The notes under the pieces were generated by a model. That model searched no databases. It was not told the DNA's origin and was given only the letters and a program-made list of their open reading frames with translations. DNA of 64,000 nucleotides, from assembly GCF_009914755.1 (NCBI RefSeq), contig NC_060935.1. The stretch is one strand, 5' to 3'. Position 1 is the first letter of the stretch. Each line of letters opens with the position of its first letter. The translations under genes were made by a program, and so were the position numbers. The DNA comes from the human T2T-CHM13v2.0 reference genome, Homo sapiens. Of the stretch, positions 27,622-57,042 are shown one piece after another.

Positions 27622-28034
27622 TGTCCGGCATCTGAGTCCAAGCTAAGCCATCCTATCCCCTGTGACCTGCACGTACACATCCAGATGGCCAGTTCCTGCT
27701 TTAACTGATGACATTCCACCACAAAAGAAGTGAAAATGGCCTGCTCCTGCCTTAACTGATGTCATTATCTTGTGAAATTCCTTCTCCTGGCTCATCCTGG
27801 CTCAAAAGCTCCCCTACTGAGCACCTTGTGACCCCCACACCTGCCCGCCAGAGAACAACCCCCCTTTGACTGTAATTTTCCTTTACCTACCCAAATCTTA
27901 TAAAATGGCCCCACCCCTGTCTCCCTTCACTGACTCTTTTCAGACTCAGCCCGCCTGCACCCAGGTGAAATAAACAAGCCTTGTTGCTCACACAAAGCCT
28001 GTTTGGTGGTCTCTTCACACAGACACGAGTGAAA
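27622..28034 (+). promoter_or_regulatory. LTR7 promoter/enhancer (5' LTR of provirus 1)
   Basis: Duplicated ttaactgatg enhancer block with ACAAAAGA at 27721-27728, TATAAAA at 27899, GC/CACCC box, AATAAA at 27969; intact downstream splice donor G/GTAAG at 28181. Activity is inferred, not shown. Confidence 0.75.
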
Positions 28035-28505
28035 TTTGGTGCCATGACTCAGATCGGGGGACTTCCCTTGGGAGATCAATCCCCTGTCCTCCTGCTCTTT
28101 GCTGCGTGAGAAAGATCCACCTATGACCTCGGGTCCTCAGACCAACCAACCCAAGGAACATCTCACCAATTTTAAATCGGGTAAGCGGCCTCTTTTTACT
28201 CTCTTCTCCAACATCTCTCACTATCCCTCAACCTCTTTCTCCTTTCAATCTTGGCACCATCTTTCAATCTCTCCCTTCTCTTAATTTAAGTTCCTTTCCT
28301 TTTCTGGTAGAGACAGAGGAGATGTGTTTTATCCGTCAACCCAAAACTCTGGCGCCGGTCACGGACTCGGGAAGACAGTCTTTCCTTGGTGTTTAATCAC
28401 TGTGGGGACACCTGCTTGATTATTCATCCACGTTTCAGAGGTGTCTGATCACCATGGGGATGCCTGCCTTGATCCTTCACCCTTAGTGGCAAGCATGGCT
28501 ATTTT

Positions 28506-28815
28506 GGGGGGCAAGCCCCCCCAACCCTTGTCTCCATGTCTCTGCCCTCTCTTTTCTCTCCACTTTCCTGGGGGGCAAGCACCCCCTACCCCTTCTCTCC
28601 ATATACCTACCCCTTCTCCACTTTCCTGGGGGCAAGCACCCCCCACCCCTTCTCTCCATGTCTCTACCCTCTCTTTTCTCTCCACTTTCCTGCGGGGCAA
28701 GCACCCCCCCCCCACCCCTTCTCTCTGTGTCTCTACCCTCTCTTTTCTCTCCACTTTCCTGGGGGCAAGCATCCCCCACCCCCTTCTCTCCATGTCTCTA
28801 CCCTCTCTTTTCTCT
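28506..28815 (+). repeat. HERV-H leader tandem repeat, 5 units of ~58-68 bp
   Basis: Repeated gggggcaagcaccccc...ttctctccatgtctctaccctctcttttctctccactttcct. Confidence 0.9.
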
Positions 28816-29765
28816 GGGCTTGCTTCCTTCACTATAGGCAACCTTTCACCCTCCACTCCTCCTCCTTCTCCCTTAGCCTGTGTTCTCAAGAACTTAAAAC
28901 TGCTTCTAAATCACAGCTGACCTAAAACCTAAACACCTTATTTTCTTCTGCAATGCCGCTTAACCCCAATACAAACTCGACAATGGTTCCAAATAGCCAG
29001 AAAACGACACTTTCAAATTTTCCATCCTATAAGATCTAGATAATTCTTGCCATAAAATGGGAAAATGGTCTGAGGTGCCTGATGTCCAGGCATTCTTTTA
29101 CACAGCCGTCCCTCTCCAGTCAATGTTCCCAATGCAACTTGTCCCAAATCTTCCTTCTTTCCCTCCTGCCTGTCCCCTCAGGCCCAAACCCAAGTATTGC
29201 TGAGTCTTTCCAATCTTCCTTTTTTACAGACCCATCTGACCTCTCCCCTCCTCCCCAGGCTGCTCCTCCCCAGGCCAAGCCAGGTCCCAATTCTTCCTCA
29301 GCCTCTGCACCCCAACCCTATAATCCTTTTATTACCTCCCCTCCTCACACCTGGTCTGGCTTATAGTTTCATTCCACTACTAGCCCTCCCCTACCTGCCC
29401 AGCAATTTCCTTTTAAAAAGGTGGCTGGAGCTAAAGGCATAGTCAAGGTTAATGCTCCTTTTTCTTTATCTGACCTCTCCCAAATCAGTTAGCATTTAGG
29501 CTCTTTTTCATCAAATATAAAAACCCAGCCCAGTTCATGGCTTATTTGGCAGCAACCCTGAGATGCTTTACAGCCCTAGACCCTGAAAGGTCAGAAGGCC
29601 GTCTTATTCTGAATATGCATTTTATTTTATTACCCAATCCACACCGAATATCAAATAAAGCTCCAAAAATTAAATTCTGGCCCTTAAACTCCACAACAGA
29701 ACTTAATTAACCTCACCTTCAAGGTGTACAATAATAGAGAAAAGTTATAATTACTTGCGTTTACT

Positions 29766-31550
29766 GTGAGACAAAACCCAGCCGCACCTCCAGCACACAA
29801 GAACTTCAAAATGCCTAAGTCGCATGTGCCTAAGCCGCAGCAGTCAAGCATTCCTGCAGGACCTTCTCCATCAGGATCTTGCTTCAAGTGCCAGAAATCT
29901 GGCCACTGGGCCAAGGAATGCCCACAGCCCAGGATTCCTCCTAAGCCATGTCCCATCTGTATAGGACCCCACTGAAAATCAGACTGTCCAACTCACCCGG
30001 CAGCCGCTCCCAGAGCCCCTGGAACTCTGGCCCAAGGCTCTCTGATTCCTTCCCAGATCTTGGCTTAGTGGCTGAAGACTGATGCTCCCCGATCACCTCA
30101 GAAGCTTCCTGGACCATCACAGACACTTTGGGTAACTCTTACAGTGGAGGGTAAGTCCATCCCCTTCTTAATCATTACAGAGGCTACCCACTCCACATTA
30201 CCTTCTTTTCAAGGGCCTGTTTCCCTTGCCTCCATAACTGTTGTGGGTATTGACAACCAGGCTTCTAAGCCTCTTAAAACTCCCCAACTCTGGTGCCAGT
30301 TTGGACAATATTCTTTTATGCACTCCTTTTTAGTTATCCCTGCCTGCCCAGTTCCCTTATTAGGCCGAGACATTTTAACTAAATTATCTGCTTCCTATGC
30401 TACAGCCACACCTCATTGCCACCCTTTTCTCCAGTTCAAAGCCTCCTTCACATCCTGCTCTTGTATCTCCCCATTTTAATCCACAACTATAGGATACCTC
30501 TACTCCCTCCTTGGTGACCGATCATGCACCCCTTACCATCCCATTAAAACCTAATCACCCTTACCCCACTTAAGGCCAATATCCCATCCCACAGCACACT
30601 TTAAAAGGATTAAAGCCTGTTATCACTTGCCTGTTACAACATGGCCTTTTAAAGCCTATAAACTCTCCTTACAATTCCCCCGTTTTACCTGTCCTAAAAC
30701 CAGACAAGCCTTACAGATTAATTCAGGATCTGCACCTTATCAACCAAATTGTGTTGCCTATCCACCCCATGGTGCCAAACCCATATACTCTCCTATTCTC
30801 AATACCTCCCTCCACAACCCGTTCTGTTCTAGATAAACCTAGCTGACCCCATAAATCCTAAATCCTTTCCCCACTCCCCTTTCCATTCCTTAAAAAACAG
30901 CCCTAAAAGCTGCTCCCACACTAGCTCTCCCTAACTCATCCCAACCCTTTTCATTACACACAGCTGAAGTGCAGGGCTGTGCGGTCAGAATGCTTACACA
31001 AGAGCTGGGACTGCACCCTGTAGCCTTTTTATCCAAACAACTTGACCTTACTGTTTTAGTCTAGCCCTCATGTCTGCATGCAGCTGCTGCCACTGCCTTA
31101 ATACTTTTAGAGGCCCTCAAAATCACAAACTATGCTCAACTCACTCTCTACAGTTCTCATAACTTACATAATCTATTTTCTTCCTCACACCTGATACATA
31201 TACTTTCTGCCCCCTTCCACTACCTCTCAGCAAGCCGAACTCATTGCCTTAACTTGAGCCCTCACTCTTCCAAAAGGACTGCACGTCAATATTTATACTG
31301 ACTCTAAATATGCCTTCCATATCCTGCACCACCATGCTGTTATATGGGCAAGAAGAGGTTTCCTCACTATGCAAGGGTCCTCCATTATTAATTCCTCTTT
31401 AATAAAAACTCTTCTCAAGGCCGGTTTACTTCCAAAGGAAGCTGGAGTCATTCACTGCAAGGGCCGTCAAAAGGCATCAGATCCCATTGCTCAGGGCAAC
31501 GCATAGGCTGATAAGGTAGCTAAAAAAGCAGCTAGTGTTCCAACTTCTGT
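29766..31550 (+). pseudogene. HERV-H gag(NC)-pro-pol remnants of provirus 1
   Basis: CFKCQKSGHWAKEC zinc knuckle; protease-like FLIITEATHS...LLGRDILTKL; fragmented RT/RNase H. Confidence 0.9.
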
Positions 31551-32102
31551 CCACCCCCAAAATTTTTGCTGCCCCAACACTTCAATACTATTTTATGTGA
31601 TTTTTCTTATTAATATAAGAAGACAGGAATGTCAGGGCTCTGAGACCAAGCTAAGCCATCATATACCCTGTGACCTGCTTGTATACATCCAGATGGCCCA
31701 AAGTAACTGAAGAATCACAGAAGAAGTGGAAATGGCCTGTTCCTGCCTTAACTGATGACATTACCTTGTGAAATTCCTTCACCTGGGTCATCCTGGCTCA
31801 AAAGCTCCCCCACTGAGCACCTTGTGACCCCCACCCCTGCCAGTCAAAGAACAACCCCCTTTGAGTGTAATTTTCCACTACCTACCTAAATCCTATAAAA
31901 CGGCCCGACCCCTATATCCCTTTGCTGGCTATATCCCTTCACTGGCTCTCTTTTTGGACTCAGCCTGCCTAGACCCAGGTGATTAAAAAGCTTTATTGCT
32001 CACACAAAGCCTGTTTGGTGGTCTCTTCACACGGTCGTGTGTGAAAATCATTTTTTAATTTAATCTACACAATGAATTCTATGACTCAAGTGCTATTATT
32101 AT

Positions 32103-32811
32103 TTAAACTGCCTTTACAAAAATCATAATTGAGGAAATTATGACAGTGGAAATTATGACAACCCCATCTTCCTTCTAACCTCTAAACTGTCTTTGTCCAT
32201 TCCTGGGCATAGGCCTTGGGAAAGAATTTAGTTTATAGTTTAAATTCTGAAACAAAATATTGCTAATAGTCTTTTCCCAAAAAAAACCCCTTCTTGCCTG
32301 AGGACCAGTCTGTCTTTGTCAGACTAACAAATCAGCCACAAAATTAGAGATTGTGGTTCAGGGGCCATGCAGCCTCTGGCTGTAGGAGTCTGAATCTCCC
32401 CAAATTGCTCCTGGGAATAACATCACTGTTGCAAAACTTAAGATAGGTGCTTGAGATATTTTGCAGACCCGGCAATCCCGCAGCAGATAACACCACTCAG
32501 GCCAATAATCTGGCTCAACCAATTTGGCGATCCCACCCAGGAACAGAAGTCATCAAGAATAACTCACTTCGACCCCCCTATGATTTCATCTTTAAACCGA
32601 CCAATCAGCACTCCCACTTTTCTAGGCCTTACCTGCCAACTTATCCTTAAAAACTGATCCCTGAATGCTCTGGGAGGCTGATTTGAGTAATAATAAAACT
32701 GGTTTCCCACACAGACTTCTCTGCATGAATTACTTTTGCCATTGCAATTCCCTTCTTAATAAATAGGCTCTGGGTAGGCAGCAGGAAAGGTGAACCCAAT
32801 GGGCAGTTACA
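32103..32811 (+). mobile_element. ERV1 solo LTR (LTR8/LTR8A-like) inserted in a MIR
   Basis: aaactgcctttacaaaa...gggcagttaca; 4-bp TSD ttat (32099-32102 and 32812-32815); MIR sequence continues on both sides. Confidence 0.8.
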
Positions 32812-33551
32812 TTATATTTTATAAATGAAGAACCTGAGGTTTAGAAAGATTAAGTAATTTAGCATAGGTAGTACATGTAATAAATGCTGGAGTTGAAATA
32901 CAAACACAGAGAAATTCCAAAGCTGATATTCTTTACCATGACACTAATATAAGGCAGAAGTTTTAAGAGTGGTTGAAAAATGCTCACAGTCAACTTGGAA
33001 GAAAGACAGGTAGGAGTGATACATATACATGGAGATTGAGGAGAGGCTGGAAAGAAGACAACTGGCAAAGAATGTCACATTGGCAAAGGCAGGGAGGTAG
33101 GCGTTTACATAGAGATTTAGGCATAATGGGTTGAAACTATTTATAGAGTTTAGGGTGATAATAATGAAAAGCTAAGAACCAAAACTGTGGAGATTATCAG
33201 GTTGTTTCTCATTTAGTTGAAAGTGCAGGGGGAGGGAAAGAATTATCAAGCTTAGTCAGAAAAACATCTCTTAACCACGAAATGCAAAGACTTGAAAAAC
33301 AAACCCTAAACTACAAATGTCAGAGAGTACTTCACTCTGAGATTTGAATCCAAATGCCATTAAAAGTTTATTACTTCCTGAAGAAATGCAGTCATTGAGA
33401 TGTTGATGGGTGAACTTTTACTTAAAAAGGTTATTCTGAAATGCTGTGGTTCTTAATGGAGTTTTTTTTTTAAACCATGCTTTCTGATAGGAAACTTAGC
33501 AACCAGGGACTTTGCTCACCCTATACCCTTGAGACACTACTGTCCTCCAAA

Positions 33552-33858
33552 TGTTGTAGGACTTTCTGCTTTCTCCTTAGTTCAGCTAAAAATGGGGTTC
33601 TTGTCACATGACCAGGAAGGATGAAGCTCATGAATACATAGAAGTGTGCAAAAAATGGAATTTATTGGGTGAAAAGGAAAAAAAACAAAACTAATCTCAC
33701 AGATTGGATTCCCAGGTGACCACCCAAGAACAGAAGAGGCCAGGCTCCTCCCCACTGCAAATGGTGTGAACTTCCTGAGGCTCCACCCCAGTTTGCACTC
33801 CTCCCAGTGCAGGTTGGTCAGAGGTTCTCTGGGGACCTCTTTTTACTTGGCTCTCTCA
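33552..33858 (-). mobile_element. ERV1 solo LTR (MER61/MER50-like)
   Basis: TG...CA ends with 4-bp TSD caaa (33548-33551 and 33859-33862); antisense AATAAA at 33661. Confidence 0.65.
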
Positions 33859-34164
33859 CAAACTTCCTTTACTTGGATTATGCTTAACTATCCTTCAAAG
33901 ATCAACTCTGGTAGAAAGAGCATTGGAGGGATCCAGATGGTAGACAGATCACACACATTTATTCCTGGAAACTGAGCCATAGCCCTGCAGACTGTCTTTC
34001 CATCATTCATATTAGAAGCCATGGCCCTGTTGGCAAGGGATTTACAGAGGAAGGAGAATGTCTGAAAACTGTATTTCAGAACACCAAACTGGAAGGGGTG
34101 TTCTCTGGGTCAATACCTCCCTAGGGGTTGCTGTAAATAATAAGTGATCTCAAGTCCTTTCTAG

Positions 34165-34634
34165 AAAAATGGCTCAGAATAGGCTACTCAAAATATGGTG
34201 CCTTCATGTATTGAATATTTTAAGCTGAAGGAATTTGAGAAACAGCAGGTTTTCTCTCCTGAAGCAGGTCATAAGACTCTCATGTGAGAGGTGCCCTTCC
34301 TATACCTGGAAGAAAGGAGCATCCTTATCTCCGAACATGCCAAGAATAATATGAACAAACAGGCCTTGATCAGTTTTCCCCAATTTACTACCCTTAGCTC
34401 ATACCCTTTTATTTTATCACTTTCTACTCCTCACCAAACTTAGTGTAAAAACACTCAGGCTTAACCATTTCTTCAGATCTTTATTTCCTTGTGAAGACTC
34501 CCATGTTATGTAAAACTTATATTAAATAAATTTGTATGTTTTTCTCAATAATATTTCTTTTGCAAGTCCAGTTTACAGGGCCCCATATGGAGAACCCAGG
34601 AGGGTGTACAAAGAATAATTTTTTCCTCTACTAC
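34165..34634 (+). mobile_element. ERV1 solo LTR (MER34/MER39-like)
   Basis: tattgaatattttaagctgaaggaatttgaga...taaataaatttgtatg...ttcctctactaca. Left boundary approximate. Confidence 0.6.
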
Positions 34635-35183
34635 ACCAGTATCTTCCCAAACCCAGCACACACTAACCATTTACTTACAGAAGTCCACTCAGATGAACCA
34701 AGACATCAATCTTCTTGTCTTTAAGCAATAATTATTTTAGCTCACAGTGGTAACACTGGTTTACCTGTGATCATCGGAAATCTTGATTGACAGTTTGCCT
34801 TTGGTTACCAAAAGATGAAAAGAAAAATTTCTAATGATAAAATAACACAACAAAAGTGAAATACTAATAAATAAATATGGCAGACATTTTTGTGTCTTCA
34901 TTTTGTTGATAAGGAAGTTGAGACTCAGAGAGCTGAATGAACTTGTCTAAGCTAGTAAGTGAAGCTGGGACTTGAACTCAGAGCATTTGATTCCAAAATA
35001 TGAGCTCTTTACTGTTATTTAACTGTTATTATGAGGGGAAGGAGCTTCTACATAAACCACAGGAATAAGGGGAGGATCCTCAATAAGAAGAATTAGAAAA
35101 GTAAGTAAAACTATAATTATGGGAAGAATTAGAAAAGTAAATACAACTACAATTATGAGTCTAGATTGAATTAGATGGCTTCA

Positions 35184-35520
<337 letters not shown>

Positions 35521-35570
<50 letters not shown>

Positions 35571-35621
35571 CTATCTATCTATCTATCTATCGATATAGAT
35601 ATTGATAGATAGATAGATATA
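35521..35621. repeat. (TCTA)n/(GATA)n tetranucleotide STR
   Basis: Directly visible. Confidence 0.97.
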
Positions 35622-39096: not shown

Positions 39097-42000
39097 TTCA
39101 CTCGTGTCCATATGAAGAGACCACCAAACAGGCTTGGTGTGAGCAACAAGGCTGTTTATTTCATCTGGGTGCAGGCAGGCTGAGTCTGAAAAGAGGGTCA
39201 GTGAAGCGAGATAGGGGTGGGGCTGTTTTATAAGATTTAGGTAGGTAAAGGAAAATTACAGTCAAAGGGGAGTTGTTCTCTGGCGGGCAGGAGTGTGGGT
39301 CACAAGGTGCTCAGTGGGGGAGCTTTTTGAGCCAGGAGAAGGAATTTCAGAAGGTAATGTCATTAGTTAAGGCAAGGACTGGCCATTTTCACTTCTTTTG
39401 TGGTGGAATGTCATCAGTTAAGGCAGGAACAGGCCATTTAAAATTCACTTCTTTTGTGATTCTTCAGTTACTTCAGGCCATCTGGATGTATAGGTGCAGC
39501 TCACAGGGGATAATGATGGCTTAGCTTGGGCTCAGAGGCCTGACATTCCTGTCTTCTTATATTAATAAGAAAAATAAAATAGTGTTAAAGTGTTGGGGTG
39601 GTGAAAATTTTTGGGGGTGGTATGGAGAGATAATGGGCGATGTTTCTCAGGGCTGCTTTGAGCGGGATTAGGGGTGGCATGGAAACTTAGAGTGGGAGAG
39701 ATTAAGCTGAAGGAAGATTTTTTGGTAAGGGGTGATATTGTGGGGTTGTTAGAAGGAGCATTTGTCGTATAGAATTATTGGTGATGGCCTGGATACAGTT
39801 TTATATGAATTGAAAAAAGAACAGAATAAGACAAGGAGAAAAACAGGTATTAAAGGACTAAGAATTGGGAGGACCTAGGACATCCAATTAGAGAGTGCCC
39901 AAGGAGGTTCAGCATAGCCCTGCCAGCAAAGATTTATTTACTTTAAGAGGGTGTTAAGAGTGGCTATTTGGAGATAGCACCAGGAGATATGAGCTGTGAT
40001 GGCTTGGAGAAACAGTGTAAACCGGCAGTGTAAACAAAAGCAGGGCATTTATGAGAAGTTGAGAATGGTGAATAGGAGTATGACTAGACAGAAGATAGTA
40101 GGGATGACAAGTTTTTTGGGGCACAGTCCAAGTTGGTCTGGTGTCTGGAATGAGACTGGGGCCTAATAAAAAGGAGCGTCTATACAGGAGCTCAAATGGG
40201 CTGTACCCTGTAGCATTCTGAGGACAGGCCCGAATTCTGAGAAGGCAAGTGGTAAAGGTATTGTCCAGTCCTTTTTAAGTTGGTGGCTGAGCTTGGTGAG
40301 GTGTGTTTTTAAAAGACCATTAGTCCGTTTTACCTTTCCTGAAGATTGAGGACCATAAGGGGTATGAAGGTTTCACTTAATACCAAGAGCCTGAGAAACT
40401 GCTTGGGTGATTTGACTAATAAAGGCCAGTCTGCTATCGGAGTGTATAGAGGTGGGAAGGCTAAACTGAGGAATTATGTCTGACAAAAGGGAAGAAATGA
40501 CCGCAGTGGCCTTCTTAGACCCTGTGGGAAAGGCCTCTACCCATCCAGTGAAGGTGTCTACCCAGACCAAGAGGTATTTTAGTTTCCTGACTCGAGGCAT
40601 GTGAGTAAAGTCAATTTGCCAGTACCGAGCTTGATGCGTAGGGAGGGGAGGGGGGGCCTGAGAAATCCCTGAGGAGGAGTAGAATAGCAGATGGAACACT
40701 GAGAAGTGATTTCCTTGAGGACAGATTTCCATGATGGAAAGGAAATGAGAGGTTCTAAGAGATGGGCTAGTGGCTTGTAACCTACATGGAAGAGGTTATG
40801 AAATGACGACAGAATAGAATGGGTCGGTAAGACTAGAAAAGCAGCCCAAAGTAGCTGCATGGTCTGCAAAGACTTTTCCGTATTTTATTCAAATAGCACC
40901 TCATCAGCAAACCTTAGCGAATATTCAAACTCGGTTTCGACAGTCTTCTGAATCCCAGTCAAAACATTTCAACGTACATCACTTCATCTGATCCCCCCGC
41001 AATAGGCCTGGCAGTGACTTGGGGCTGGAACCAGTATCCAGTACCTACCACAGTGCTTGGCACATGGTAATAGCTCAGCGAACTGCCATCATTTTATAAA
41101 GGAAGAGACAGGCTGGAAGGAGATATTTTCCTTGGTCTAAGAACCATTTGCCTTGTGTGGGAAGAGATTGATAAGTGGAAGTTTCAATGGGGGAGTGGGA
41201 GGGAGTGACCAAAGTGAAGAAGAAAAACTGACCGTGAGGGACAGAAGTTGGAACGCTAGCTGCTTTTTTAGCTAACTTATCAGCATAAGCATTGTCCTGA
41301 GCGATGGGATCTGATGCCTTTTTGATGGCCCTTGCAGTGAATGACTCCAGCTTCCTTTGGAAGTAAAGTGGCTTTGAGAAGCGTTTTTATTAAAGAGGCA
41401 TTAATGATAGAGGACCCTTGTGTAGTGAGGAAACCTGTTGCATGGTGGTGCAGGATATGGAAGGCATGTTTAGAGTCAGTATAAATATTGATGTGTAGTC
41501 CTTTTGCAAGAGTGAGGGCTTGACTTAAGGCAATGAGAGGTAGTGGAGGGGGGCAGAGCTGTAGCCTCAATGATAGATGTGGAAGATACAATGGCATAGC
41601 CTGCCTTTGCTGGTGAGTGGCGATTAGGCCTGTTGGAACTGCCATCAATAAAGCAAGTGTGTTCACGGTGAGGAACAGGAAAGAAGGAAATATGGGGAAA
41701 TGGGGTGAATGTCAGGTGGATCAGAAAGATACTGTCATGGGGGTCAGGTGTGGTATCTGGAATAATGTGGTAGGCCCAATTGAAGTCTGGGCCAGGAACA
41801 ATGGTAATTGTGGGAGACTCAACAAAGAGTGAGTACAGCTGAAGGAGCCGGGGAGCAGAAAGTGTATGTGTCAGGTGTGAGGAAGAAAATAGATTTTGGA
41901 AGTTATGAGAACGGTAGAGAGTGAGTTGAGCATAGTTTATGATTTTAACGGCCTCTACAAGTATTAGGGCAGCGGCAGCCACTGCACGCAGGCTTGAGGG

Positions 42001-45000: not shown

Positions 45001-45072
45001 CTGGCCATCTGGATGTATAGGTGCAGGTCACAGGGGATATGATGGCTTAGCTTGGGCTTAAGAGGCCTGAGA
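39097..45072 (-). mobile_element. HERV-H provirus 2 (~6.0 kb)
   Basis: 5' LTR 44613-45072, degenerate His PBS 44592-44609, gag CYKCRKSGHWAKEC, protease, RT LDLKHAFF, integrase WQIDFTHMP, 3' LTR 39097-39545; TSD gttat/agtta on both sides. Confidence 0.97.
40824..41109. other. 286-bp non-viral insert in pol of provirus 2
   Basis: Provirus 3 reads gaatggg-cctgtg-aggctggaagg at the homologous site; here cctgtg is replaced by unrelated sequence containing L2/MIR-like motifs. Confidence 0.9.
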
Positions 45073-46132: not shown

Positions 46133-46362
46133 GGCCAGGTGTGGTGGCTCACGCCTGTAATCCCAGTACTTTGGGAGGCTGAGGTGGGTGAATCACCTAA
46201 AGTCAGGAGTTCAAGACCAGCCTGGCCAACATGGTGAAACCCTGTCTCTACTAAAAATACAAAAATTACCAGGCATGATGGTGGGTGCCTGTAATTCCAG
46301 CTACTATTGGGGAGCTGAGGCAGGAGAATCACTTGAACCTGGGAGATGGAGGTTGGAGTGAA
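46133..46362 (+). mobile_element. Alu (AluS-like), 3'-truncated
   Basis: Alu sequence stops at gaggttggagtga with no A tail. Confidence 0.9.
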
Positions 46363-48899: not shown

Positions 48900-50580
48900 A
48901 GATGAAAAATGATTGGCCTCAGGTTTCTCATTGTTGGAGTAAGAGTTTACACACAAGTCAGAGGAAGAGGCTTGATTGGTCCATGTGGTGATGAGTTAGA
49001 CTAGAGATATCAGTAGAAACTCATGTTTAGCTTAATATAGATACAGATGGTTGCATATATAAATGTTTCTATATTCACCAGTTACTATACACATATTCAT
49101 TACCTTGCTCTGTCAACTGAGAGGATCTAGAGGAAATAATGTCCCATTAGCAAAGAACACACCTAGTACCCAGATTTTAATTTTTAATAACATTCTCCAA
49201 TAAAAAAGCCTTGGAGAAATGGCTGACTCTAGGATTGGTAGGACTGGGCAAGAAATATACAAAATAAGCCTGAGCCTCTTGTAGTATAGAAAGTAAGAAA
49301 ATGCTCAAAAAATCCACAATAGTGGGAGTATGTCAAAGGAGCATCAGAGTTAACTGAAAAAGCTCTCAATGGACAAAGCTGAAACAATTTGTATAGCAAA
49401 ATAAAGTAGTTCTGGATTATAATACTATCAGATAAACTAAACTGCAAAACTAAACTAAATAAACTATAAAACTATCAGATAAATATCCAAGAATCCCTCT
49501 TGATAGAAACAAATTATTGAATAAATAGAGGCAAATGGACAACTCTTCCATACAGAAAAGTTTCAAATAATTCATGTAGCTACTTTGCACTTGTATTAGT
49601 CCACTTAAATACTGCTGTAAAGAACTGCCCAAGACTGAGTAATTTATAAAAGAAAGAGGTTTAATTGACTCCCAGTTTAGCATGGCTGGGGAGGCCTCAG
49701 GAAATTTACAATCATGGCGGAAGGGGAAGGGGAAGGGGAAGCAAGACACCTTTTTCACAAGGTGGCAGGAAGAAGTGCCAAGTGAAGAGGGAAGACCCCC
49801 CCCTATAAAACCATCAGATATTGTGAGAACTCACTCACTAGCTAGCACAAGAACAGCAGGGGGCAACCACCTCCGTGATTCAGTTACCTCCACCTGGTCC
49901 CTCCCTTGACACGTGCGGATTATTTGCATTACAATTCAAGATGAGATTTAGGTGGGGACACAAAGCCTAAAAATATCAGCAATCAAGGATGAAAAGCATG
50001 ACTCCCTACTCATTAAATGTGGGCTTCACACAGTGACTTCTTTCCAAAGAGTACAGTATGAAATGGAGGAAAAAAGAGTAACTTTACAGTAGAAAAACTT
50101 GAAAAACAGTACCTGGGCCAGGTGATCAAGGTTAGATCCACAGTAATAGTCGTGGACCCTTGATGTGGTAAGAATGGCACTTATCTACCCAAAACCTGTA
50201 ATATCAGTCTAATCATGAGAAGAACATCAGGTAAATTCCAGTTGAGAGGCATTCTGTGAAATACCTGACTGGTATTTCTTAAAACTGTCAAGGTCATCAA
50301 TAACTGAGAAAGTGTCAAAATGAAAAGGAGCCTAAAAAGACATAACAAAATATCACACAGTTCCCTGGTTAGAACCTTGGAAAAGTGTAAATGCCAAAAA
50401 AAATCAGAATAAATCATAGTCTTCAGTGAATAATGATATACCAACATTGGTTTATTAATTGCGACAAGATATTAACAATAGAGGAAACTGAGTTTTGGTG
50501 TGTATGGAAAGTCTCTGTACTACTTTTGCTTTCTTAATGTAAATCTAAAGCTATTCTAAAATAATGAGTTTTTTTAAAAA
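48900..50580 (+). mobile_element. Old L1 (L1MD/ME-type) 3' region
   Basis: Degenerate L1M 3'UTR motifs ending tgtaaatctaaagctattctaaa; interrupted by a MaLR LTR. Confidence 0.65.
49592..49978 (-). mobile_element. MaLR solo LTR (MSTA/THE1 family)
   Basis: tgtattagtcc...aaagaaagaggtttaattgactc...ggctggggaggcctcaggaaa...gatgagattt.ggtggggacaca. Confidence 0.88.
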
Positions 50581-50678
50581 CATGGCATGATGGGGAAAAA
50601 AATCACTGATAAATGGGAATCATTTTTTTGTATCTCTCATGTGATAAATAAGTTTAACTCTCTAAGCCTGTTTATCAT

Positions 50679-53600
50679 TTTCACTTGCATCTGTGTGAAA
50701 AGACCACCAAACAGGCTTTGTGTGAGCAACAAGGCTGTTTATTTCACTGGGTGCAGGCAGGCTGAGTCCGAAAAGAGAGTCAGTGAAGGGAGATAGAGGT
50801 GGGGCCATTTTATAAGATTTGGGTAGGTAAAGTAAAATTACAGTCAAAGGGGGGTTCTCTGATGGGCAGGAGTGGGGGTCACAAGGTACTCAGTGGGGGA
50901 GCTTTTGAGCCAGGATGAGCCAGAAGGAGTTTCACAAGACAATGTCATCAGTTAAGGCAGGAACCAGCCATCTGGATGTGTACGTGCAGGTAACAGGGGA
51001 TATGATGGCTTAGCTTGGGCTCAGAGGCATGACATTCCTGTCTTCTTATATTAATAAGAAAAATAAAATGAAATAGTGGTAAAGTGTTGGGACAGTGAAA
51101 ATTTTGGGGGATGGTATGGAGAGATAATGGGCGATGTTTCTCAGGGCTGCTTCGAGCAGGATTAGGGGCCGCTTGGCAACCTAGAGTGGGAGAGATTAAG
51201 CTGAAGGAAGGTTTTGTGGTAAGGGGTGATATTGCGGGGTTGTTAGAAGAAACATTTGTCATGTAGAATTATTGGTGATAGCCTGGATAAGGTTTTGTAT
51301 GAATTGGAAAACTAAATGGAATAAGAGAAGGAGAAAAACAGGTATTAAAGGTTTAAGAATTGGGAGGACCCAGGACATCTAATTAGAGTGCCTAAGGAGA
51401 TTCAGCATAGTCCTGCCAGCAAAGATTATTTATTTACTTCAAGAGTTAAGAGTGGCAGTTTGGGGATAGCACCAGGAGATATCAGCTGCGATGGCTTGGA
51501 GAAACAGTGTAAACCGGCAGTGTAAACAAGAGCAGGGCATCTATGAGTAGTTGAGAATGGTGAATGGGAGTATGACTAGACAGAAGATAGTAGGGATGAC
51601 AAGTTATTTGGGGCACAGTCCAAGTTGGTCTGGTGTCTGGAATGAGACTGGGGCTTAATAAAAAGGAGTGTCCATACAGGAGCTCAAATGGGCTGTACCT
51701 TGTAGCATTCCAAGGACAGGCCTGAATTCTGAGAAAAGGAAGTGGTAAAAGTATTGTCCAGTCCTTTTTAAGTTGTTGGCTGAGCTTGGTGAGGTGTGTT
51801 CTTAAAAGACCATTAGTCCGTTCTACCTTTCCTGAAGACTGAGGACTGTAAGGGATATAAAGGTTTCACTTAATACCAAGAGCCTGAAAAACTGCTTGGG
51901 TGATTTGACTAATAAAGGCCAGTCCACTGTCAGACTGCGTGGAGGTGGGAAGGCCAAACCGAGTAATTATGTCTGACAGAAGGGAAGAAATGACTGCGGT
52001 GGCCTTCTCAGATCTTGTAGGAAAGGCCTCTACCCATTCAGTGAAAATATCTACCCAGACCAAGAGGTATTTTAGTTTTCTGACTTGGGGCATGTGAGTA
52101 AAGTCAATTTGCCAGTCTTGGGCAGAGACAAATCCCTGAGCTTGATGTGTAGGAAAGGGAGGGGGCCTGAACAATCCCTGAGGGGTAGTAGAATAGCAGA
52201 TGGAACACTGAGAAGTGATCTGCTTGAGGATAGGTTTCTATGATGGAAAGGAAATTAGAGGTTCTAAGAGATGGGCTAGAGGCATGTAACCTACATGGAA
52301 GAGGTTATGAAATGATGACAGAATAGAATGGGCCTGTGAGGCTGGAAGGAGATATTTTCCTTGGTCTAAGAACCATTTGCCTTGTGTGGGAAGAGATTGA
52401 TAGTTGGAAGTTTCAGCGGGGGAGTAGGTGGGAGTGACCGATGTGAAGGAGAAAAACTGGCCGTGAGGGACAGAAGTTGGAGAGCTAGCTGATTGTCTAG
52501 CCACCTTATCAGCATAAGCGTTGCTGTGAGAGACAGAAGTTGGAAGGCTAGCTGCTTGTCTAGCCACCTTATCAGCATAAGCGTTGCCTAGATCAATGGG
52601 ATCTGACACCTTTTGATGCCCCTTGCAGTGAATGACCCCAGCTTCCTTTGGAAGTAAAGCGGCCTTGAGCAGAGTTTTTACTAAAGAGGCATTAATGACA
52701 GAGGACCCTTGTATAGTGAGGAAACCTCTTGCATGGTGGTGCAGGATATGGAAGGCATATTTAGAGTCAGTATAAATATTGACGTTTAGTCCTTTTGCAA
52801 GAGTGAGGGCTTAACTTAAGGCAATGAGTTCAGCTTGCTGAGAGGTAGTGAAGGGGGGCAGAGCAGTAGCCTCAGTGATAGATGTGGAAGATGCTATAGC
52901 ATAGCCTGCCTTTGCTGGTGAGTGGCGATTAGGCCTGGTGGAACTGCCATCAATAAACCAAGTGTGTTCAGGGTGAGGAACAGGAAATAATATGGGGAAA
53001 TGGAGTGAATGTCAGGTGGATCAGAGAGATACAGTCATGGGGTGTGGTATCAGGAATAATGTGGTAGACCCGATTGAAGTCTGGACCAGGAACCATGGTA
53101 ATTGTGGGAGACTCAACAAAGAGTGAATACAGCTGAAGGAGCTGGGAAGCAGAAAGTATATGTGTCAGGTGTGAGGAAGAAAACAGATTTTGGAAGTTAT
53201 GAGAACTGTAGAGAGTAAGTTGAGCATAGCTTGTGATTTTAAGGGCCTCTGAAAGTATTAGGGCAGTGGCAGCCACCACACACAGACTTGAGGGCTAGGC
53301 AAAACAGTAAGGTCAAGTTGTTTGAATAAAAAGGTTACAGGGTGCGGTCCTGGTTCTTGTGTTAGAATTCTGACTGCACAGCCCTGCACTTCAGCTGTGG
53401 GTAATGAAAAGGGTTAGGATGAGTCAGGGAGAGCTAGGGTTGGGGCAGTCTCTAAAGCTGTCTTTAAGAAATGGAAAGAGGAGTGGGGAAAGGATTTAGG
53501 ATCTATGGGGTCAGCTAGGTTTCCTTTTGTGAGTTTATATAATGGTTTTGTTAGGATGGCAAAACCAGATATCTAAAGTTGAAAGTATCTAACCATGCCT

Positions 53601-56600
53601 AGGAAGGAAAGGAGTTGTTTTGTAGAAAGGATTGAGGTTTGGGAGATTAGTCAGACATGATCAGCAGGGAGAGCACGTGTGTTCTTATGAGAATTATGCC
53701 GAGATAGGTAACAGATGAGGAAGAAATTTGGGCTTGACTGAAGTAATGGGGGCTATCTGTAAAGCCTTGTGGCAGTACAGCCCAGGTAATTTGCTGAGCC
53801 TGATGGGTGTCAGGGTCAGTCTAAGTGAAAGCGAAGAGAGGCTGGGATGAAGGGTGCAAAGGAATAGTAAGGAAAGCATGTTTGAGATCCAGAACAGAAT
53901 AATGAGTTGTGGAGGGAGATATTGAGGATAGGAGAGTATATGGATTTGGCACCACGGGGTGGATAGGGAAAACAATTTAGTTGATAAGGCTCAGATCTTG
54001 AACTAACCTGTAAGGCTTGTCTGGTTCTAGGACAGATAAAATGGAATTGTAAGGAGAGTTTATAGGCTTTAAAAGGCCATGCTGTAGCAGGCAAGTGATA
54101 ACAGGCTTTAATCTTTTTAAAGCACACTGCAGGATGGGATATTGGCGTTGAGTGGGGTAAGGGTGATTAGGTTTTAATGAGATGGTAAGGGGCTCATGAT
54201 CGGTTGCCAAGGACGGAGTAGAGGTATCCTATACTTGTTGGTTAAGGTGGGGGGATACAAAAGGAGGATGCAAAGGAGGCTTTGGATTGGGAAGAAGGGT
54301 GGCAATGAGATGTGGCTGTATCCCAGGAATAGTCAGGGAAGCAGATAATTTAGTTAAAGTGTCTCGGCCTAATAAGGGAACTGGGCAGGTGGGTATAACT
54401 AAAAAGGAGTGCTTAAAAAGTATTGTCTAAGTTGGCACCAGAATTGGGGAGTTTTAAGAGGTTTAGAAGCCTGGCCATCAATACCCACAACAGTTATGGA
54501 GGCAAGGGAAACAGGCCCTTGAAAAGAAGGTAATGTGGAATGGGTATCCTCCATATTGATTAAGAAGGGGACGGACTTACCTTCCACTGTGAGAGTTACC
54601 TGAAGCTCGGCATCTGTTATGGTCTAGGGGGCTTCCAAGGCCATCTGGCAGCATTAATCTTCAGCCCCTAAGCTGAGAAGATCTGGGAAGGAGTCGGTCA
54701 GAGAGCCTCAGGCCAGAGTTCCAGGGGCTCTGGGAGTGGCTACTAGGTGAGTTGAACAGTCCAATTTTCAGTGGGGTCCTGCACAGATGGGACATGGCTT
54801 AGGAGGAATCCCGGGCTTAGGAGGAATTCCTTGACCTGGTGGCCAGATTTCTGGCACTTGTAGCAAGCTCCTGGGGGAGGTGGGCCTGGAGGAACATCTG
54901 GCCACTGTGGTTTAGGCATTTGGAAGTTCTTGTGTGCTGGAGATGTGGCTGGGGTTTGTCTCACAGTGGAGGCAAAGAATTGCAACTCAGAAATATGTTG
55001 CTACTTGGCTGCCTCCACTCTATTATTGTACACCTTGAAGGTGAGGTTAATTAAGTCCTGTTGTGGGGTTTGAGGGCCAGAATTTAATTTTTGGAGTTTT
55101 ATTTAATGTTGGGAGGATATTGGGTAATAAAATGTATATTGAGAATAAGACGGCCTTTTGACCTTTTATGGTGTAGGGCTGTAAAGCATCTCAGGGTTGC
55201 TGCCAAATGAGCCATGAACTGGGCTGTGTTTTTATATTTGATGAAAAAGAGCCTAAATGCTCTCCAATTTGGGATAAAGAAAAAGAAGCATTAACCTTGA
55301 CTATGCCTTTAGCTCCAGCCACCTTTTTAAGAGGAAATTGCTGGGCAGGTGGGGGTGGGCTACTCATGGAATGAAAATGTAAGCCTGACAGGGTGTGAGG
55401 TGGGGAGGTGATAAAAGGATTATAGGGTGGAGGAGCGGAGGCTAAGGAAGAATTGGGACCTAGCTCAGTCTGGCAAGGAGGGGAGAGGTCAGATGGGTCT
55501 GTAGAAAAGGAAGATTAGAAAGACTCAGTGACACTTGGGGTTGGGACTGAGGGGACAGGTGGGAGGGAAAGAAGGAAGATTCGGGACAAATTGCATTGGG
55601 AACAGAGACTAGGGAAGGACTGATGTGTAAAAGAAGGCCTGGGTGTCAGGCACCTCAGACCATTTACCCATTTTATGACAAGAATTATCTAGATCTTGTA
55701 GGATGGAAAAATCGAAAGTGCCATTTTCTGGCTATTTGGAACCACTGTCGAGTTTGTATTGGAGTCAAGTGGCATTGCAGAAGAAAATAAGGCATTTAGG
55801 TTTTAGGTCAGGTGTGAGTTGAAGAGGTTTTAGGTTTTTAAGAACACAGGCTAAGGGAGAAGAAGGGGGAATGGAGGGTGGAAGCTTGCCTATAGTGAAG
55901 GGGGCAAGCCCGGACAAAAGAGTAGAGACACGGAGGGAAGGGGTTTGGGGGTTCTTAACCTCCAGAAAATTAGGAAAGGGGTCAGGGCGTGGAAATAAGG
56001 GGTTGGGGTGCAGAGATAAGTGGTCAGGGAGCAGAAATAAGGGATCGGGGTGCAGAGATAGAGGTTGGGGCACAGATATAAGTGATCAGGGCACAGAGAT
56101 AAGGGGTCAGGGCGTGGAAATAAGGCATTGGGGGGTTCTTGCTCCCCCAGAAAAGCAGAGAAGGGGTAGAGACAGGGAGCGAAGGGGTCGGGGGTTCTTT
56201 CCCCTCCCCCAGAAAAGCGGGACTTGCCACTAAGGGTGAAGGACCAAGGCAGGCGTCCCTGCGTGGTCAGACACCTCTGAAACGTGGGTGAATAATCAGA
56301 GAGGCGTCCCTGCAATGATTAAACACCAAGGGAAGGCTGCCTTCCCAAGTCCGTGACTGGCGCCAGAGTTTTGGGTCCGTGGATAAAGTATGTCTCCTTT
56401 GTCTCTACCAGAAAATGAGAGGAATTGGAATTAAGAGAAGGGAGAGATTGAAGGGTGGCACCAAGACGGAAAGGAGAAAGTGGTTGAGGGATAGTGAGAG
56501 AGATTGGAGAAGAGAGTAAGAAGAGGCCGCTTACCTGACCTAAAATTGGTGAGATGTTCCTTGGGCTGGTGGGTCTGAGGACCCGAGGTCATAGGTGGAT

Positions 56601-57042
56601 CTTTTTCACGGAGCAAAGAGCAGGAGGACAAGGGATTGATCTCCCAAGGGAGGTCCCCCGATCTGAGTCATGGCACCAAATTTCACTCGTGTCCGTGTGA
56701 ACAGACCACCAAACAGGCTTTCTGTGAGCAACAAGGCTGTTTATTTCACCTGGGTGTAGGCGGGCTGAGTCTGAAAAGAGAGTCAGTGAAGGGAGATGGG
56801 GTGGGGCCATTTTATAAGGTTTGGGTAGGTAAAGGAAAATTACAGTCAAAGGGGGGTTGTTCTCTGATGGGCAGTAGTGGGGGTCACAAGGTACTCAGTG
56901 GGGGAGCTTTTGAGCCAGGATGAGCCAGGAGAAGGAATTTCACCAGACAGTGTCATCAGTTAAGGCAGGAACTGGCCATCTGGATGTGTACGTGCAGGTA
57001 ACAGGGGATATGATGGCTTAGCTTGGACTCAGAGGCCTGACA
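50679..57042 (-). mobile_element. HERV-H provirus 3 (~6.4 kb, most complete of the three)
   Basis: 5' LTR 56681-57042, His PBS 56661-56678, splice donor (cttac on + strand at 56530-56534), gag/pro/pol/IN remnants, 3' LTR 50679-51034; TSD atcat/attat with one mismatch. Confidence 0.97.
52462..52587 (-). repeat. 63-bp in-frame tandem duplication in the HERV-H RNase H region
   Basis: Two units at 52462-52524 and 52525-52587; ORF shows NAYADKVARQ twice. Confidence 0.95.

What the first reader, a model, noticed from the sequence alone, without database searches (positions are those of the whole stretch)
27622..57042. Three independent HERV-H proviruses within 30 kb, in convergent plus tandem arrangement
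Seen: three two-LTR proviruses (+, -, -) with different LTR architectures, different deletions and separate integration sites, so they did not arise by segmental duplication. Four other ERV1 solo LTRs lie in the same interval. Established: HERV-H copies number about a thousand genome-wide, so this density is far above average; transcribed HERV-H can act as pluripotency lncRNA promoters and chromatin boundaries, and pairs mediate recurrent NAHR. Inference: this is an integration hotspot or trap. Convergent transcription or read-through could make kb-long HERV-H dsRNA or antisense small RNA; provirus 1 with 2 or 3 predisposes to inversion, and 2 with 3 to deletion of about 12 kb.
Basis: partly seen in the sequence, partly recalled or inferred. 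Interest (0 to 1): 0.7.

Follow-up and report, generated by a model that had tools for sequence, protein, structure and literature searches.

The report
HERV-H provirus cluster with fossil inversion
Three dead HERV-H retrovirus copies really do sit within 30 kb here, a fourth lies 77 kb upstream, and two of the four swapped halves when the 75 kb between them was flipped by recombination.

Summary
Each has a tRNA-His primer site and gag-pro-pol remnants. P2 and P3 are separate insertions with their own target-site duplications and own-partner LTRs, not a segmental duplication.

P1 is not one insertion. Its LTRs differ by K2P 0.13 and it has no target-site duplication. Searching the window's own genome found a fourth HERV-H, P0, on the minus strand 77 kb upstream. 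P0's 3' LTR is 96% identical to P1's 5' LTR. P0's 5' LTR is the best genome-wide match of P1's 3' LTR. The 5-bp duplications are swapped between the two elements, 5/5 and 5/5. So P0 and P1 are reciprocal chimeras left by a ~75-kb inversion between two inverted proviruses.

In a published list of 607 LTR7-HERVH proviruses this is the tightest triple and the only group of four within 500 kb (random-placement P 0.0004-0.005).

All three window copies are catalogued as silent in H1 embryonic stem cells. The dsRNA, boundary and present-day NAHR ideas get no support. The "four ERV1 solo LTRs" could not be confirmed.

The parts
27622..32046 (+). P1, a chimeric HERV-H. It carries the 5' LTR, PBS and start of the leader of provirus A, joined to the body and 3' LTR of provirus B. 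It lacks integrase and part of RT.
27622..28034 (+). P1 5' LTR, which is the 5' LTR of provirus A. Its true partner is P0's 3' LTR, outside the window: K2P 0.035, 14 differences in 409 sites, 1 indel event.
27617..27621 (+). GTAGG, the 5' half of provirus A's target-site duplication. Its twin follows P0's 3' LTR.
28037..28054 (+). tRNA-His primer-binding site of P1 (2 mismatches).
28173..28213 (+). Tentative crossover interval of the inversion. To its left P1 carries the P2/P3-like state at 26 of 34 informative sites; to its right at 81 of 187.
   Evidence: 26 of 2000 permutations reach the observed value
28507..28815 (+). 65-69-bp tandem array (4.8 copies) in the P1 leader/pre-gag region.
31630..32046 (+). 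P1 3' LTR, which is the 3' LTR of the older provirus B. Its true partner is P0's 5' LTR: K2P 0.075, 28 differences in 394 sites. It has 21 private differences in 322 shared sites, against 5-9 for the other five window LTRs.
32047..32051 (+). ATCAT, the 3' half of provirus B's target-site duplication. Its twin precedes P0's 5' LTR.
1..28190 (.). The part of the ~74.7-kb inverted segment that lies in the window. The whole segment runs from about window -46.5 kb to +28.2 kb. Its other end lies in P0, the fourth HERV-H, outside the window at about -49587 to -45992, minus strand (T2T chr11:83278413-83282008; L009:2913-6508). P0 is the reciprocal chimera: 5' LTR and leader of B joined to the body and 3' LTR of A. 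It has a PBS-His, zf-CCHC and RVP; the RT-to-integrase region is deleted.
39097..45070 (-). P2, an ordinary single-insertion HERV-H. LTRs are at 39097-39543 and 44614-45070 (K2P 0.046-0.051) and the PBS at 44592-44609. It lacks about 760 bp of leader/gag. Flanking AGTTA lies at 39092-39096 and 45072-45076.
50679..57042 (-). P3, an ordinary single-insertion HERV-H. LTRs are at 50679-51034 and 56681-57042 (K2P 0.059) and the PBS at 56661-56678. The flanks are ATCAT (50674-50678) and ATTAT (57043-57047), a 4/5 match.
28023..28180 (+). Exon 2 of lncRNA CCDC90B-AS1, made of P1 U5, PBS and leader. The AG acceptor is at 28021-28022 and the GT donor at 28181-28182.
   Evidence: hub annotation
30057..34886 (+). 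Last exon of CCDC90B-AS1. It starts in the P1 protease region (AG acceptor), reads through the P1 3' LTR and ends after an AATAAA, 4.2 kb short of P2.
   Evidence: hub annotation

Best explanation
The locus records four separate germline insertions of HERV-H within about 107 kb, followed by one ectopic recombination.

An older provirus B inserted on the + strand at the present P1 site, making the duplication ATCAT. Its LTR pair now differs by K2P 0.075. Later three proviruses of the 7d wave inserted. P3 (K2P 0.059) and P2 (K2P 0.046-0.051) landed on the - strand, 18.6 and 7 kb downstream of B. Provirus A (K2P 0.035, duplication GTAGG) landed on the - strand about 75 kb upstream.

A and B lay in inverted orientation. 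Homologous recombination between them, probably in the leader 120-160 bp downstream of the primer-binding site, flipped the ~74.7 kb in between. That left two reciprocal chimeras. P1 is the 5' end of A joined to the body and 3' LTR of B. P0 is the 5' end of B joined to the body and 3' LTR of A.

Today all four copies are dead. Every frame is broken, the longest stop-free stretch in P1-P3 is 166-190 aa, and no env domain is detected in P1-P3. P1-P3 are CpG-depleted. The three window copies are transcriptionally silent in H1 embryonic stem cells. P1 supplies splice sites and two exons to a host lncRNA that starts 105 kb upstream.

Shown: the four elements, their independence, the LTR and duplication swap, and the excess density. 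Inferred: the order of insertions from LTR divergence, the crossover position, and the cause of the clustering.
For: Element identity rests on (PBS-His; domain order; LTR ends).

Independence of P2 and P3: their flanks share only Alu-sized matches. Own-partner LTR clades have support 98/95 and 87/89. Each has its own duplication.

Evidence for the inversion:
- P1's cis LTR pair differs by K2P 0.132-0.134 with 7 indel events, and P1's flanks match at only 1 of 5 positions.
- P1's 3' LTR finds P0's 5' LTR as the best of 39 scored non-self hits genome-wide (539 bits, next 529).
- P1's 5' LTR finds P0's 3' LTR as the best hit (96%, 664 bits, next 635).
- As a control, P2's 5' LTR finds its own partner only third.
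- In the maximum-likelihood tree of the eight LTRs, (P0_5,P1_3) has support 100/99 and (P0_3,P1_5) 93/93.
- The duplications are swapped exactly. P1 has GTAGG...ATCAT and P0 has ATCAT...GTAGG, 5/5 twice.

Independent annotation agrees. Carter et al. 2022 class P0's 5' LTR as 7o and P1's 5' LTR as 7d1. Their remasking calls P1's 3' LTR 7bc, in the older group.

Crossover. Size.

Density. No other HERV-H-like DNA lies in 130 kb upstream or 70 kb downstream.

Dead and silent.
Against: - The B pair wins the genome-wide ranking by only 10 bits. Alone this would be weak, and the case rests on its agreement with the duplications and the A pair.
- To the right of the inferred crossover the informative sites form a mosaic: P1 carries the P2/P3-like state at 81 of 187, not near 0. 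So the crossover position is tentative. Later gene conversion, or weak subfamily structure in the internal region, is not excluded.
- No outgroup genome could be examined, so the ancestral orientation is inferred, not seen.
- Ages depend on a substitution rate taken from recall.
- The density test uses a hand-copied list. It holds LTR7 sensu stricto only, omits LTR7B/C/Y proviruses, uses a >1 kb cut and uses chromosome lengths from recall. Its nulls ignore fine-scale genome features.
- HERV-H pairs within 30 kb are over-represented about 3.6-fold genome-wide (14 observed, 3.9 expected). Against a null that includes that clustering, this locus is less extreme.
Confidence: 0.85

Rival explanations
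1. P1 is one ordinary provirus. Its 3' LTR was overwritten by gene conversion or mutated unusually fast, and its target-site duplication decayed. The likeness to P0 is coincidence.
For: Non-allelic gene conversion among LTRs is documented, with tracts of 14-450 bp, and is favoured between linked copies (PMC4921805 passages). The B pair is only 88% identical and leads the genome-wide ranking by 10 bits.
Against: - Conversion does not move flanking host DNA, yet both 5-bp duplications are exchanged exactly, 5/5 and 5/5.
- Both whole LTRs, including their indel architecture, pair across the two elements, with 1 and 2 indel events against 7 and 8 in cis.
- The best hits are reciprocal genome-wide.
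- The private changes of P1's 3' LTR are a mixed spectrum, 12 of 21 being transversions. That is not G-to-A hypermutation.
Confidence: 0.03
2. The clustering comes from integration targeting. Like gammaretroviruses, which integrate at strong enhancers and promoters, HERV-H repeatedly hit an active regulatory region of the germline or early embryo here, perhaps the older provirus B itself.
For: - Three 7d-wave insertions (A, P2, P3) landed within about 107 kb of an older HERV-H.
- Genome-wide, adjacent proviral pairs are over-represented: 7 within 10 kb against 1.3 expected, and 14 within 30 kb against 3.9.
- RefSeq lists two enhancers between P2 and P3 (hub annotation).
- MLV targeting of enhancers through BET proteins is established (abstracts seen in the listing).
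Against: - HERV-H integration preference is unmeasured. The 10 listed of the 20 papers found do not mention HERV-H.
- Fixed copies are filtered by selection and by solo-LTR formation.
- The enhancer calls come from present-day human cells, not from the hominoid germline.
- The three window copies sit far apart in the tree-ordered table (rows 327, 510, 699), so they are not local copies of one another.
Confidence: 0.3
3. The clustering comes from regional tolerance or from chance. This is a gene-poor stretch between CCDC90B and the 3' end of DLG2, where proviruses are neither selected against nor collapsed to solo LTRs.
For: - The window holds only lncRNA exons and the end of DLG2 (hub annotation).
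- It is also rich in L1 and Alu.
- All four HERV-H kept both LTRs.
- The finer the bins of the null, the weaker the excess: the triple null mean rises from 0.0095 to 0.055.
Against: Even with 2-Mb bins the group of four has P 0.005. No further HERV-H-like DNA lies in the 200 kb of flanks scanned. So the excess is confined to about 107 kb, not to a broad tolerant region.
Confidence: 0.35
4. The cluster is a functional unit. It makes kb-long HERV-H double-stranded RNA or small RNAs by convergent or read-through transcription, or it acts as a chromatin boundary.
For: If one + strand RNA spanned all three elements, P1 would be complementary to P2 and P3. Gapless arms of 476 and 432 nt are 89% complementary, with duplex energies of -853 and -710 kcal/mol against about -212 for shuffled partners. 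A predicted lncRNA, LOC124906965, spans the whole window on the + strand (hub annotation).
Against: - All three loci score 0 for RNA-seq above 2 FPKM, top-septile GRO-seq and chimeric transcripts in H1. P1 and P3 carry KAP1/ZNF534, and P3 carries H3K9me3.
- The LTRs are 7d, not the 7up type that is transcribed in ESCs.
- Own-promoter transcripts of all three are sense, so they are not complementary.
- The curated lncRNA ends at 34886, 4.2 kb before P2.
- The arms lie 11-28 kb apart and the longest perfect helix is 27-41 bp.
- CpG observed/expected of 0.20-0.27 indicates long-term germline methylation.
Confidence: 0.05
5. P2 and P3 arose by tandem segmental duplication of an ~11.5-kb unit.
For: The start-to-start spacing of homologous parts is a regular 11.3-11.5 kb. 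An Alu follows each element in the same orientation (46134-46355 and 57634-57854, 88.8% identical).
Against: - Outside the proviruses the two units share only Alu-sized matches.
- The Alus lie at different offsets from the provirus ends, 1064 and 592 bp.
- Each LTR is closer to its own partner (K2P 0.046 and 0.059) than to the matching LTR of the other element (0.099-0.114).
- The LTR architectures differ (95-bp U3 indel) and so do the internal deletions.
- The flanking duplications differ.
Confidence: 0.02

Closest known systems
Rearrangements between HERV-K proviruses, inferred from mismatched target-site duplications and discordant LTR trees
   Same: The same logic and signature apply. The two LTRs of one element do not group together, the flanking duplications do not match in cis, and both match a second element.
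   Different: The family differs: HERV-H (LTR7) rather than HERV-K(HML-2). Here both reciprocal products are present, so a balanced inversion of about 75 kb can be read directly. I found no paper describing this locus.
Recurrent HERV-H-mediated deletions and duplications at 3q13.2-q13.31, 1q41, 2p12 and 11q24.3 (Campbell et al. 2014, PMC4195946; passages read)
   Same: HERV-H copies serve as substrates of ectopic homologous recombination, despite lacking 300-500 bp of uninterrupted identity.
   Different: Those are directly oriented pairs, at least 94% identical, that give pathogenic copy-number changes in living people. Here the pair was inverted, the event is an old balanced inversion present in both reference assemblies, and the surviving direct pair (P2/P3) is only 90.7% identical.
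chr6:131.30-131.34 Mb (hg38), a triple of LTR7up1 HERV-H (Carter et al. 2022, supplementary file 1)
   Same: It is the only other triple of LTR7-HERVH proviruses within 50 kb in the 607-row list (span 43.4 kb).
   Different: All three are on the + strand and of the young, ESC-active 7up1 type. Two of them fall in the top GRO-seq septile. The chr11 copies are 7d or older and silent. I did not examine the chr6 sequences.
LTR7up-driven, ESC-transcribed HERV-H loci (Carter et al. 2022, PMC8912925)
   Same: Same retroviral family and overall structure.
   Different: The chr11 LTRs are 7d1 and 7d2, or 7o/7bc-like. They show no KLF4, NANOG or SOX2 binding and no RNA in H1.

Membership tests
HERV-H (RTVL-H) provirus | Primer-binding site complementary to the 3' end of tRNA-His, directly after the 5' LTR | tested here: met
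   There are 3 matches in the window (2, 3 and 2 mismatches) at the expected places, against 0.01 expected by chance. P0 has 1 match (3 mismatches), against 0.00 expected. The motif itself was typed from recall.
HERV-H (RTVL-H) provirus | Two LTR7-type LTRs of about 350-460 bp flanking gag-pro-pol in gammaretrovirus-like order | tested here: met
   LTR pairs. The Pfam order is zf-CCHC, RVP, RVT_1, RNase_H, rve on the sense strand. All three window loci and P0 are listed as LTR7-HERVH in PMC8912925 supplementary file 1.
HERV-H (RTVL-H) provirus | The common deleted form of about 5.8 kb, lacking most of env (this feature is recalled) | tested here: met
   The lengths are 4.4, 6.0, 6.4 and 3.6 kb. 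None of the 58 + 13 sense ORFs scanned hit an env or TM domain.
Single, unrearranged retroviral insertion | Matching 5-bp target-site duplication, and LTRs that are each other's closest relatives | tested here: not met
   This row concerns P1 and P0, which fail. In cis the duplication matches at 1 of 5 positions, cis LTR K2P is 0.134 and 0.098, and the LTRs pair across the two elements. P2 and P3 do meet the criterion.
Provirus-provirus recombination inversion | Two inverted elements with reciprocally exchanged duplications and reciprocally paired LTRs | tested here: met
   P1 has GTAGG/ATCAT and P0 has ATCAT/GTAGG. Clade supports are 100/99 and 93/93. The best hits are reciprocal genome-wide.
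Provirus-provirus recombination inversion | The ancestral, uninverted arrangement seen in an outgroup | not testable with these tools
   No ape genome is held. The supplement of the macaque Strand-seq paper could not be searched.
NAHR-prone HERV pair (criteria of Campbell et al. 2014) | Same orientation, each at least 4 kb, at least 94% identity over at least 2 kb | tested here: not met
   P2 and P3 are 90.7% identical over 5449 aligned positions, and their longest exact run is 95 nt. The criteria come from the PMC4195946 methods passages. I did not see that paper's Table S1.
ESC-active HERV-H (LTR7up) | LTR7up subfamily, RNA above 2 FPKM or top-septile GRO-seq, and KLF4/NANOG binding in H1 | tested here: not met
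   Supplementary file 1 rows class the loci as 7d1, 7d1 and 7d2, with RNA 0, GRO 0, NANOG 0 and KLF4 0 for all three. The column meanings come from the methods passages.

The most novel reading that the evidence does not exclude
HERV-H 'homes'. New copies integrate preferentially next to existing, germline-active HERV-H or LTR7 regulatory DNA, much as gammaretroviruses target enhancers. This would produce a genome-wide excess of close provirus pairs: 7 within 10 kb against 1.3 expected, and 14 within 30 kb against 3.9. The chr11 locus would be the extreme case, with three 7d-wave insertions around one older provirus. The dense, mixed-orientation cluster then set up the ~75-kb inversion. By the divergence of provirus A's LTRs (K2P 0.035) the inversion post-dates roughly 8-16 million years ago, so it could be specific to African apes or to humans.
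Probability: 0.2. Interest if true: 0.6.

Novelty: new member of a known kind. Interest (0 to 1): 0.4.

Why it matters
The three proviruses themselves are ordinary and already catalogued. Following up P1's oddities adds two things.

First, there is a clean, fully readable example of a balanced ~75-kb inversion made by recombination between two HERV-H copies. Both reciprocal products survive with swapped duplications. This shows that this abundant family has reshaped hominid chromosomes by inversion as well as by the deletions and duplications known from patients. It also offers a simple marker to place on the ape tree.

Second, there is a quantitative sign that HERV-H proviruses cluster at short range genome-wide, with this locus as the extreme case. 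If that reflects integration targeting rather than retention, it says something about how this virus chose its sites.

The result is also a caution against dating proviruses by LTR divergence without checking the duplications. P1 would be dated at about 30 million years, yet neither of its two parents has that age.

Tried and rejected
- **Segmental duplication of P2/P3.** Rejected on the flanks, the LTR tree and the duplications.
- **Inversion between P1 and P3.** I considered this first because P1's 5' LTR is close to P3's (K2P 0.058). It is rejected because P1's 3' LTR is 0.13-0.14 from both P3 LTRs and P3 has its own duplication. The closeness reflects a shared 7d-type subfamily.
- **Deletion fusing two tandem proviruses as the origin of P1.** Superseded once P0 was found.
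- **APOBEC-type hypermutation of P1's 3' LTR.** Rejected, because only 2 of its 21 private changes are G-to-A.
- **Rfam scan of the whole window.** It gave 0 matches at gathering scores.
- **Pfam on the gaps between the proviruses.** 0 of 23 ORFs hit a family.
- **Naming the 'four ERV1 solo LTRs'.** Not possible without a repeat library. Only two LTR-sized dispersed repeats were seen.
- **Literature.**
  - 'CCDC90B-AS1': 0 papers.
  - HERVH + CCDC90B: 0 papers.
  - HERV-H + 11q14: 9 papers, 8 listed, none on this locus judged from the listing.
  - Inversion/HERVH/inverted repeats/chr11/great apes: 3 papers, none holding 'HERVH'.
  - Target site duplications + proviruses + inversion + HERV-H + recombination: 0 papers.
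  - A 2025 HERVH review has no occurrence of cluster, hotspot, tandem or integration site.
- **Macaque Strand-seq supplement.** Not searchable.

Full report
**Observation.**
- P1 is 27622-32046 (+), with LTRs at 27622-28034 and 31630-32046.
- P2 is 39097-45070 (-), with LTRs at 39097-39543 and 44614-45070.
- P3 is 50679-57042 (-), with LTRs at 50679-51034 and 56681-57042.

An 18-nt motif complementary to the tRNA-His 3' end (typed from recall) matches three times in 64 kb at up to 3 mismatches. Each match lies 2-4 nt inside a 5' LTR. Chance expectation is 0.01. Of 58 sense-strand ORFs, those with Pfam hits run zf-CCHC, RVP, RVT_1, RNase_H, rve in retroviral order. P1 lacks integrase, and no env domain appears. 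Every frame is broken: the longest stop-free stretch is 166-190 aa, and CpG observed/expected is 0.20-0.27.

**P2 and P3 are independent.** Outside the proviruses the two ~11.5-kb units share only Alu-sized matches. Their LTR architectures differ by a 95-bp U3 indel. P2 lacks about 760 bp of leader/gag and P3 lacks about 280 bp. Each LTR is closest to its own partner, with K2P 0.046-0.051 for P2 and 0.059 for P3, against 0.099-0.114 across the two elements. P3 is flanked by ATCAT/ATTAT on the + strand (4/5), and P2 by a shared AGTTA.

**P1 is anomalous.** Four features set it apart.
- Its LTRs differ by K2P 0.132-0.134 with 7 indel events.
- Its 3' LTR has 21 private differences in 322 shared sites, against 5-9 for the other five LTRs. 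The spectrum is mixed.
- Its flanks, GTAGG and ATCAT, match at only 1 of 5 positions.
- A deletion joins RNase H directly to the last ~80 bp before the 3' LTR.

**The fourth element and the inversion.** The window's own genome proved searchable. It is T2T-CHM13, and the window is chr11:83328001-83392000.
- P1's 3' LTR has its best non-self match genome-wide at chr11:83281615-83282008 (-) (88%, 539 bits, next 529; 39 non-self hits scored of 3072 candidates).
- That match is the 5' LTR of a fourth HERV-H, P0, at chr11:83278413-83282008 (-). This corresponds to window coordinates -49587 to -45992.
- P0 has a PBS-His, gag zinc knuckle and protease. Its RT-to-integrase region is deleted.
- P0's 3' LTR matches P1's 5' LTR at 95.6% over the full 413 bp. 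It is in turn the best genome-wide hit of P1's 5' LTR (664 bits, next 635).
- As a control, P2's 5' LTR finds its own partner only third among non-self hits.
- A maximum-likelihood tree of the eight LTRs gives (P0_5,P1_3) 100/99, (P0_3,P1_5) 93/93, (P2_5,P2_3) 98/95 and (P3_5,P3_3) 87/89.
- I predicted before looking that the duplications would be swapped, and they are. In sense orientation P1 reads GTAGG|...|ATCAT and P0 reads ATCAT|...|GTAGG, 5/5 both ways.

This is the signature of homologous recombination between two inverted proviruses. Provirus A has the duplication GTAGG and LTR K2P 0.035 (14 differences in 409 sites). It originally lay on the minus strand at the P0 site. Provirus B has the duplication ATCAT and LTR K2P 0.075 (28 in 394). 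It originally lay on the plus strand at the P1 site.

Sites where P0 and P1 differ and one of them shares the P2/P3 state place the best single breakpoint between window 28173 and 28213. To the left P1 carries that state at 26 of 34 sites; to the right at 81 of 187. Of 2000 permutations, 26 reach the observed value. The pattern on the right is a mosaic, so the position is tentative. The inverted segment is about 74.7 kb, from window -46.5 kb to +28.2 kb.

**Ages.** At a recalled rate of 2.2e-9 per site per year the LTR pairs give about 8 My for A, 10.5 for P2, 13.4 for P3 and 17 for B. At half that rate the ages double. Carter et al. 2022 place 7d1/7d2 amplification at 14-20 Mya and put 7bc/7o in an older group (passages). 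The inversion is younger than A.

**Published annotation.** Carter et al. 2022 (PMC8912925; supplementary file 1 read in full, all 8 parts; supplementary file 2 searched and part 1 read; main-text passages) list all four elements in hg38.
- P0 is chr11:83341985-83345578, minus strand, 7o.
- P1 is chr11:83419135-83423556, plus strand, 7d1.
- P2 is chr11:83430603-83436575, minus strand, 7d1.
- P3 is chr11:83442184-83448545, minus strand, 7d2.

Order, strand and lengths agree with CHM13, so both reference assemblies carry the inversion. Their remasking splits P1 into a 7d2-LTR part and a 7bc-LTR part. It also gives P3's 5' LTR a 7bc call, so that label alone is weak evidence.

In H1 cells P1-P3 all score 0 for RNA above 2 FPKM, top-septile GRO-seq, chimeric transcript, NANOG, OCT4, KLF4 and SOX2. 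P1 carries KAP1, ZNF534 and H3K4me1. P2 carries only H3K27ac. P3 carries KAP1, ZNF534, ZNF90 and H3K9me3. The supplements of other papers that might list this locus were not seen.

**Is the density more than chance?** I hand-copied the 607 rows of supplementary file 1 longer than 1 kb. The file holds LTR7 sensu stricto only; LTR7B/C/Y proviruses are absent.
- Adjacent pairs (start to start) number 7, 14, 17 and 26 within 10, 30, 50 and 100 kb. Uniform placement within chromosomes gives 1.29, 3.88, 6.44 and 12.79 (2000 simulations; chromosome lengths recalled).
- Triples within 25 kb: 1, this locus, spanning 23,049 bp. The null mean is 0.0095 for uniform placement, 0.0145 for 10-Mb bins, 0.0285 for 2-Mb bins and 0.055 for 500-kb bins.
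- Triples within 50 kb: 2. The other is chr6:131.30-131.34 Mb.
- Groups of four within 101 kb: 1. It is also the only one up to 500 kb. The null gives P 0.0004 for uniform placement and 0.005 for 2-Mb bins.
- BLAST of P2 and P3 against 130 kb upstream and 70 kb downstream finds only P0.
- With all about 1326 full plus truncated HERV-H of the standard library, the analytic uniform expectation for such a triple is 0.06-0.11.

So the locus is a real outlier. It sits on top of a general, roughly 3.6-fold short-range clustering of HERV-H.

- *NAHR today.* P2 and P3 are 90.7% identical and their longest exact run is 95 nt. For P1 against P2 or P3 the longest runs are 58-62 nt. These values are below the >=94% over >=2 kb criterion and the 300-500 bp processing segment quoted in Campbell et al. 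2014. That paper also shows HERV-H recombination without such segments, and the A-by-B inversion shows it happened here once.
- *dsRNA.* Arms of 476 and 432 nt are 89% complementary and would pair strongly. But this needs one + strand RNA that crosses P2 or P3. The curated lncRNA CCDC90B-AS1 splices into P1 (AG at 28021-28022, GT at 28181-28182, AG at 30055-30056). It ends after an AATAAA at 34886.
- *ESC transcription or boundary activity.* I found no evidence for either.

**Other content.** Rfam gave no hit. The gaps between the proviruses hold Alus and two LTR-sized dispersed repeats, at 32105-32811 and 49592-49978.

**Verdict.** The added result is that P1 is half of a reciprocal pair produced by a ~75-kb HERV-H-by-HERV-H inversion, inside the densest LTR7-HERVH cluster of the catalogue. 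My searches found no paper on this inversion or this cluster.

Noticed in passing
genome-wide (hg38 coordinates from PMC8912925 supplementary file 1): HERV-H proviruses are often immediate neighbours. Seven adjacent pairs start within 10 kb of each other, against 1.3 expected. Examples are chrX:138258661/138264358 (11-bp gap, same strand), chr12:72703222/72709003 (34-bp gap, opposite strands) and chr14:48255199/48262396. I did not check whether these are tandem or nested insertions, unequal crossovers or annotation splits.
   Followed up: partly
window 3093-5742 (+) and 21439-25570 (-): Two LINE-1 fragments carry endonuclease and reverse-transcriptase domains. They are 86-88% identical to each other. 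Part of the match is direct and part inverted, so at least one copy is internally rearranged.
   Followed up: partly
window 49592-49978: A 387-bp dispersed repeat has TG..CA ends and GCACT/GCAAT flanks (4/5). It has at least 40 genomic copies at 82-86% identity and a diverged copy at 13370-13721. It overlaps the RefSeq 'enhancer' 49517-50211. From recall it resembles a MaLR (THE1/MST-type) LTR on the minus strand.
   Followed up: partly
window 32105-32811: A ~707-bp dispersed repeat lies 58 bp after P1's 3' end. At least 40 genomic copies share its ends at 77-82% identity. It has a short terminal inverted match (AACTGCC). The family is not identified.
   Followed up: no
window 28507-28815, 55976-56133, 52463-52587, 31912-31947: The copies differ in internal tandem repeats. 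P1's leader has a 65-69-bp array of 4.8 copies. At the homologous place P3 has a 21/42-bp array of about 7 copies. P3 also has a 63-bp duplication at the RNase H/integrase border, and P1's 3' LTR has a 17-bp duplication.
   Followed up: no
window 28023-28180: Exon 2 of CCDC90B-AS1 lies inside the provirus-A-derived piece, and its donor (28181) falls at the inferred crossover interval (28173-28213). The inversion brought this exon's present sequence into + orientation. Before the inversion the homologous piece of provirus B lay there.
   Followed up: no
window 50674-50678 and 32047-32051: The + strand 5-mer left of P3 (ATCAT) is the same as provirus B's duplication. I take this as coincidence in AT-rich DNA, because the wider flanks are unrelated.
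   Followed up: partly
window 35520-35591: An (ATCT)n microsatellite of 17.8 copies lies next to an Alu.
   Followed up: no
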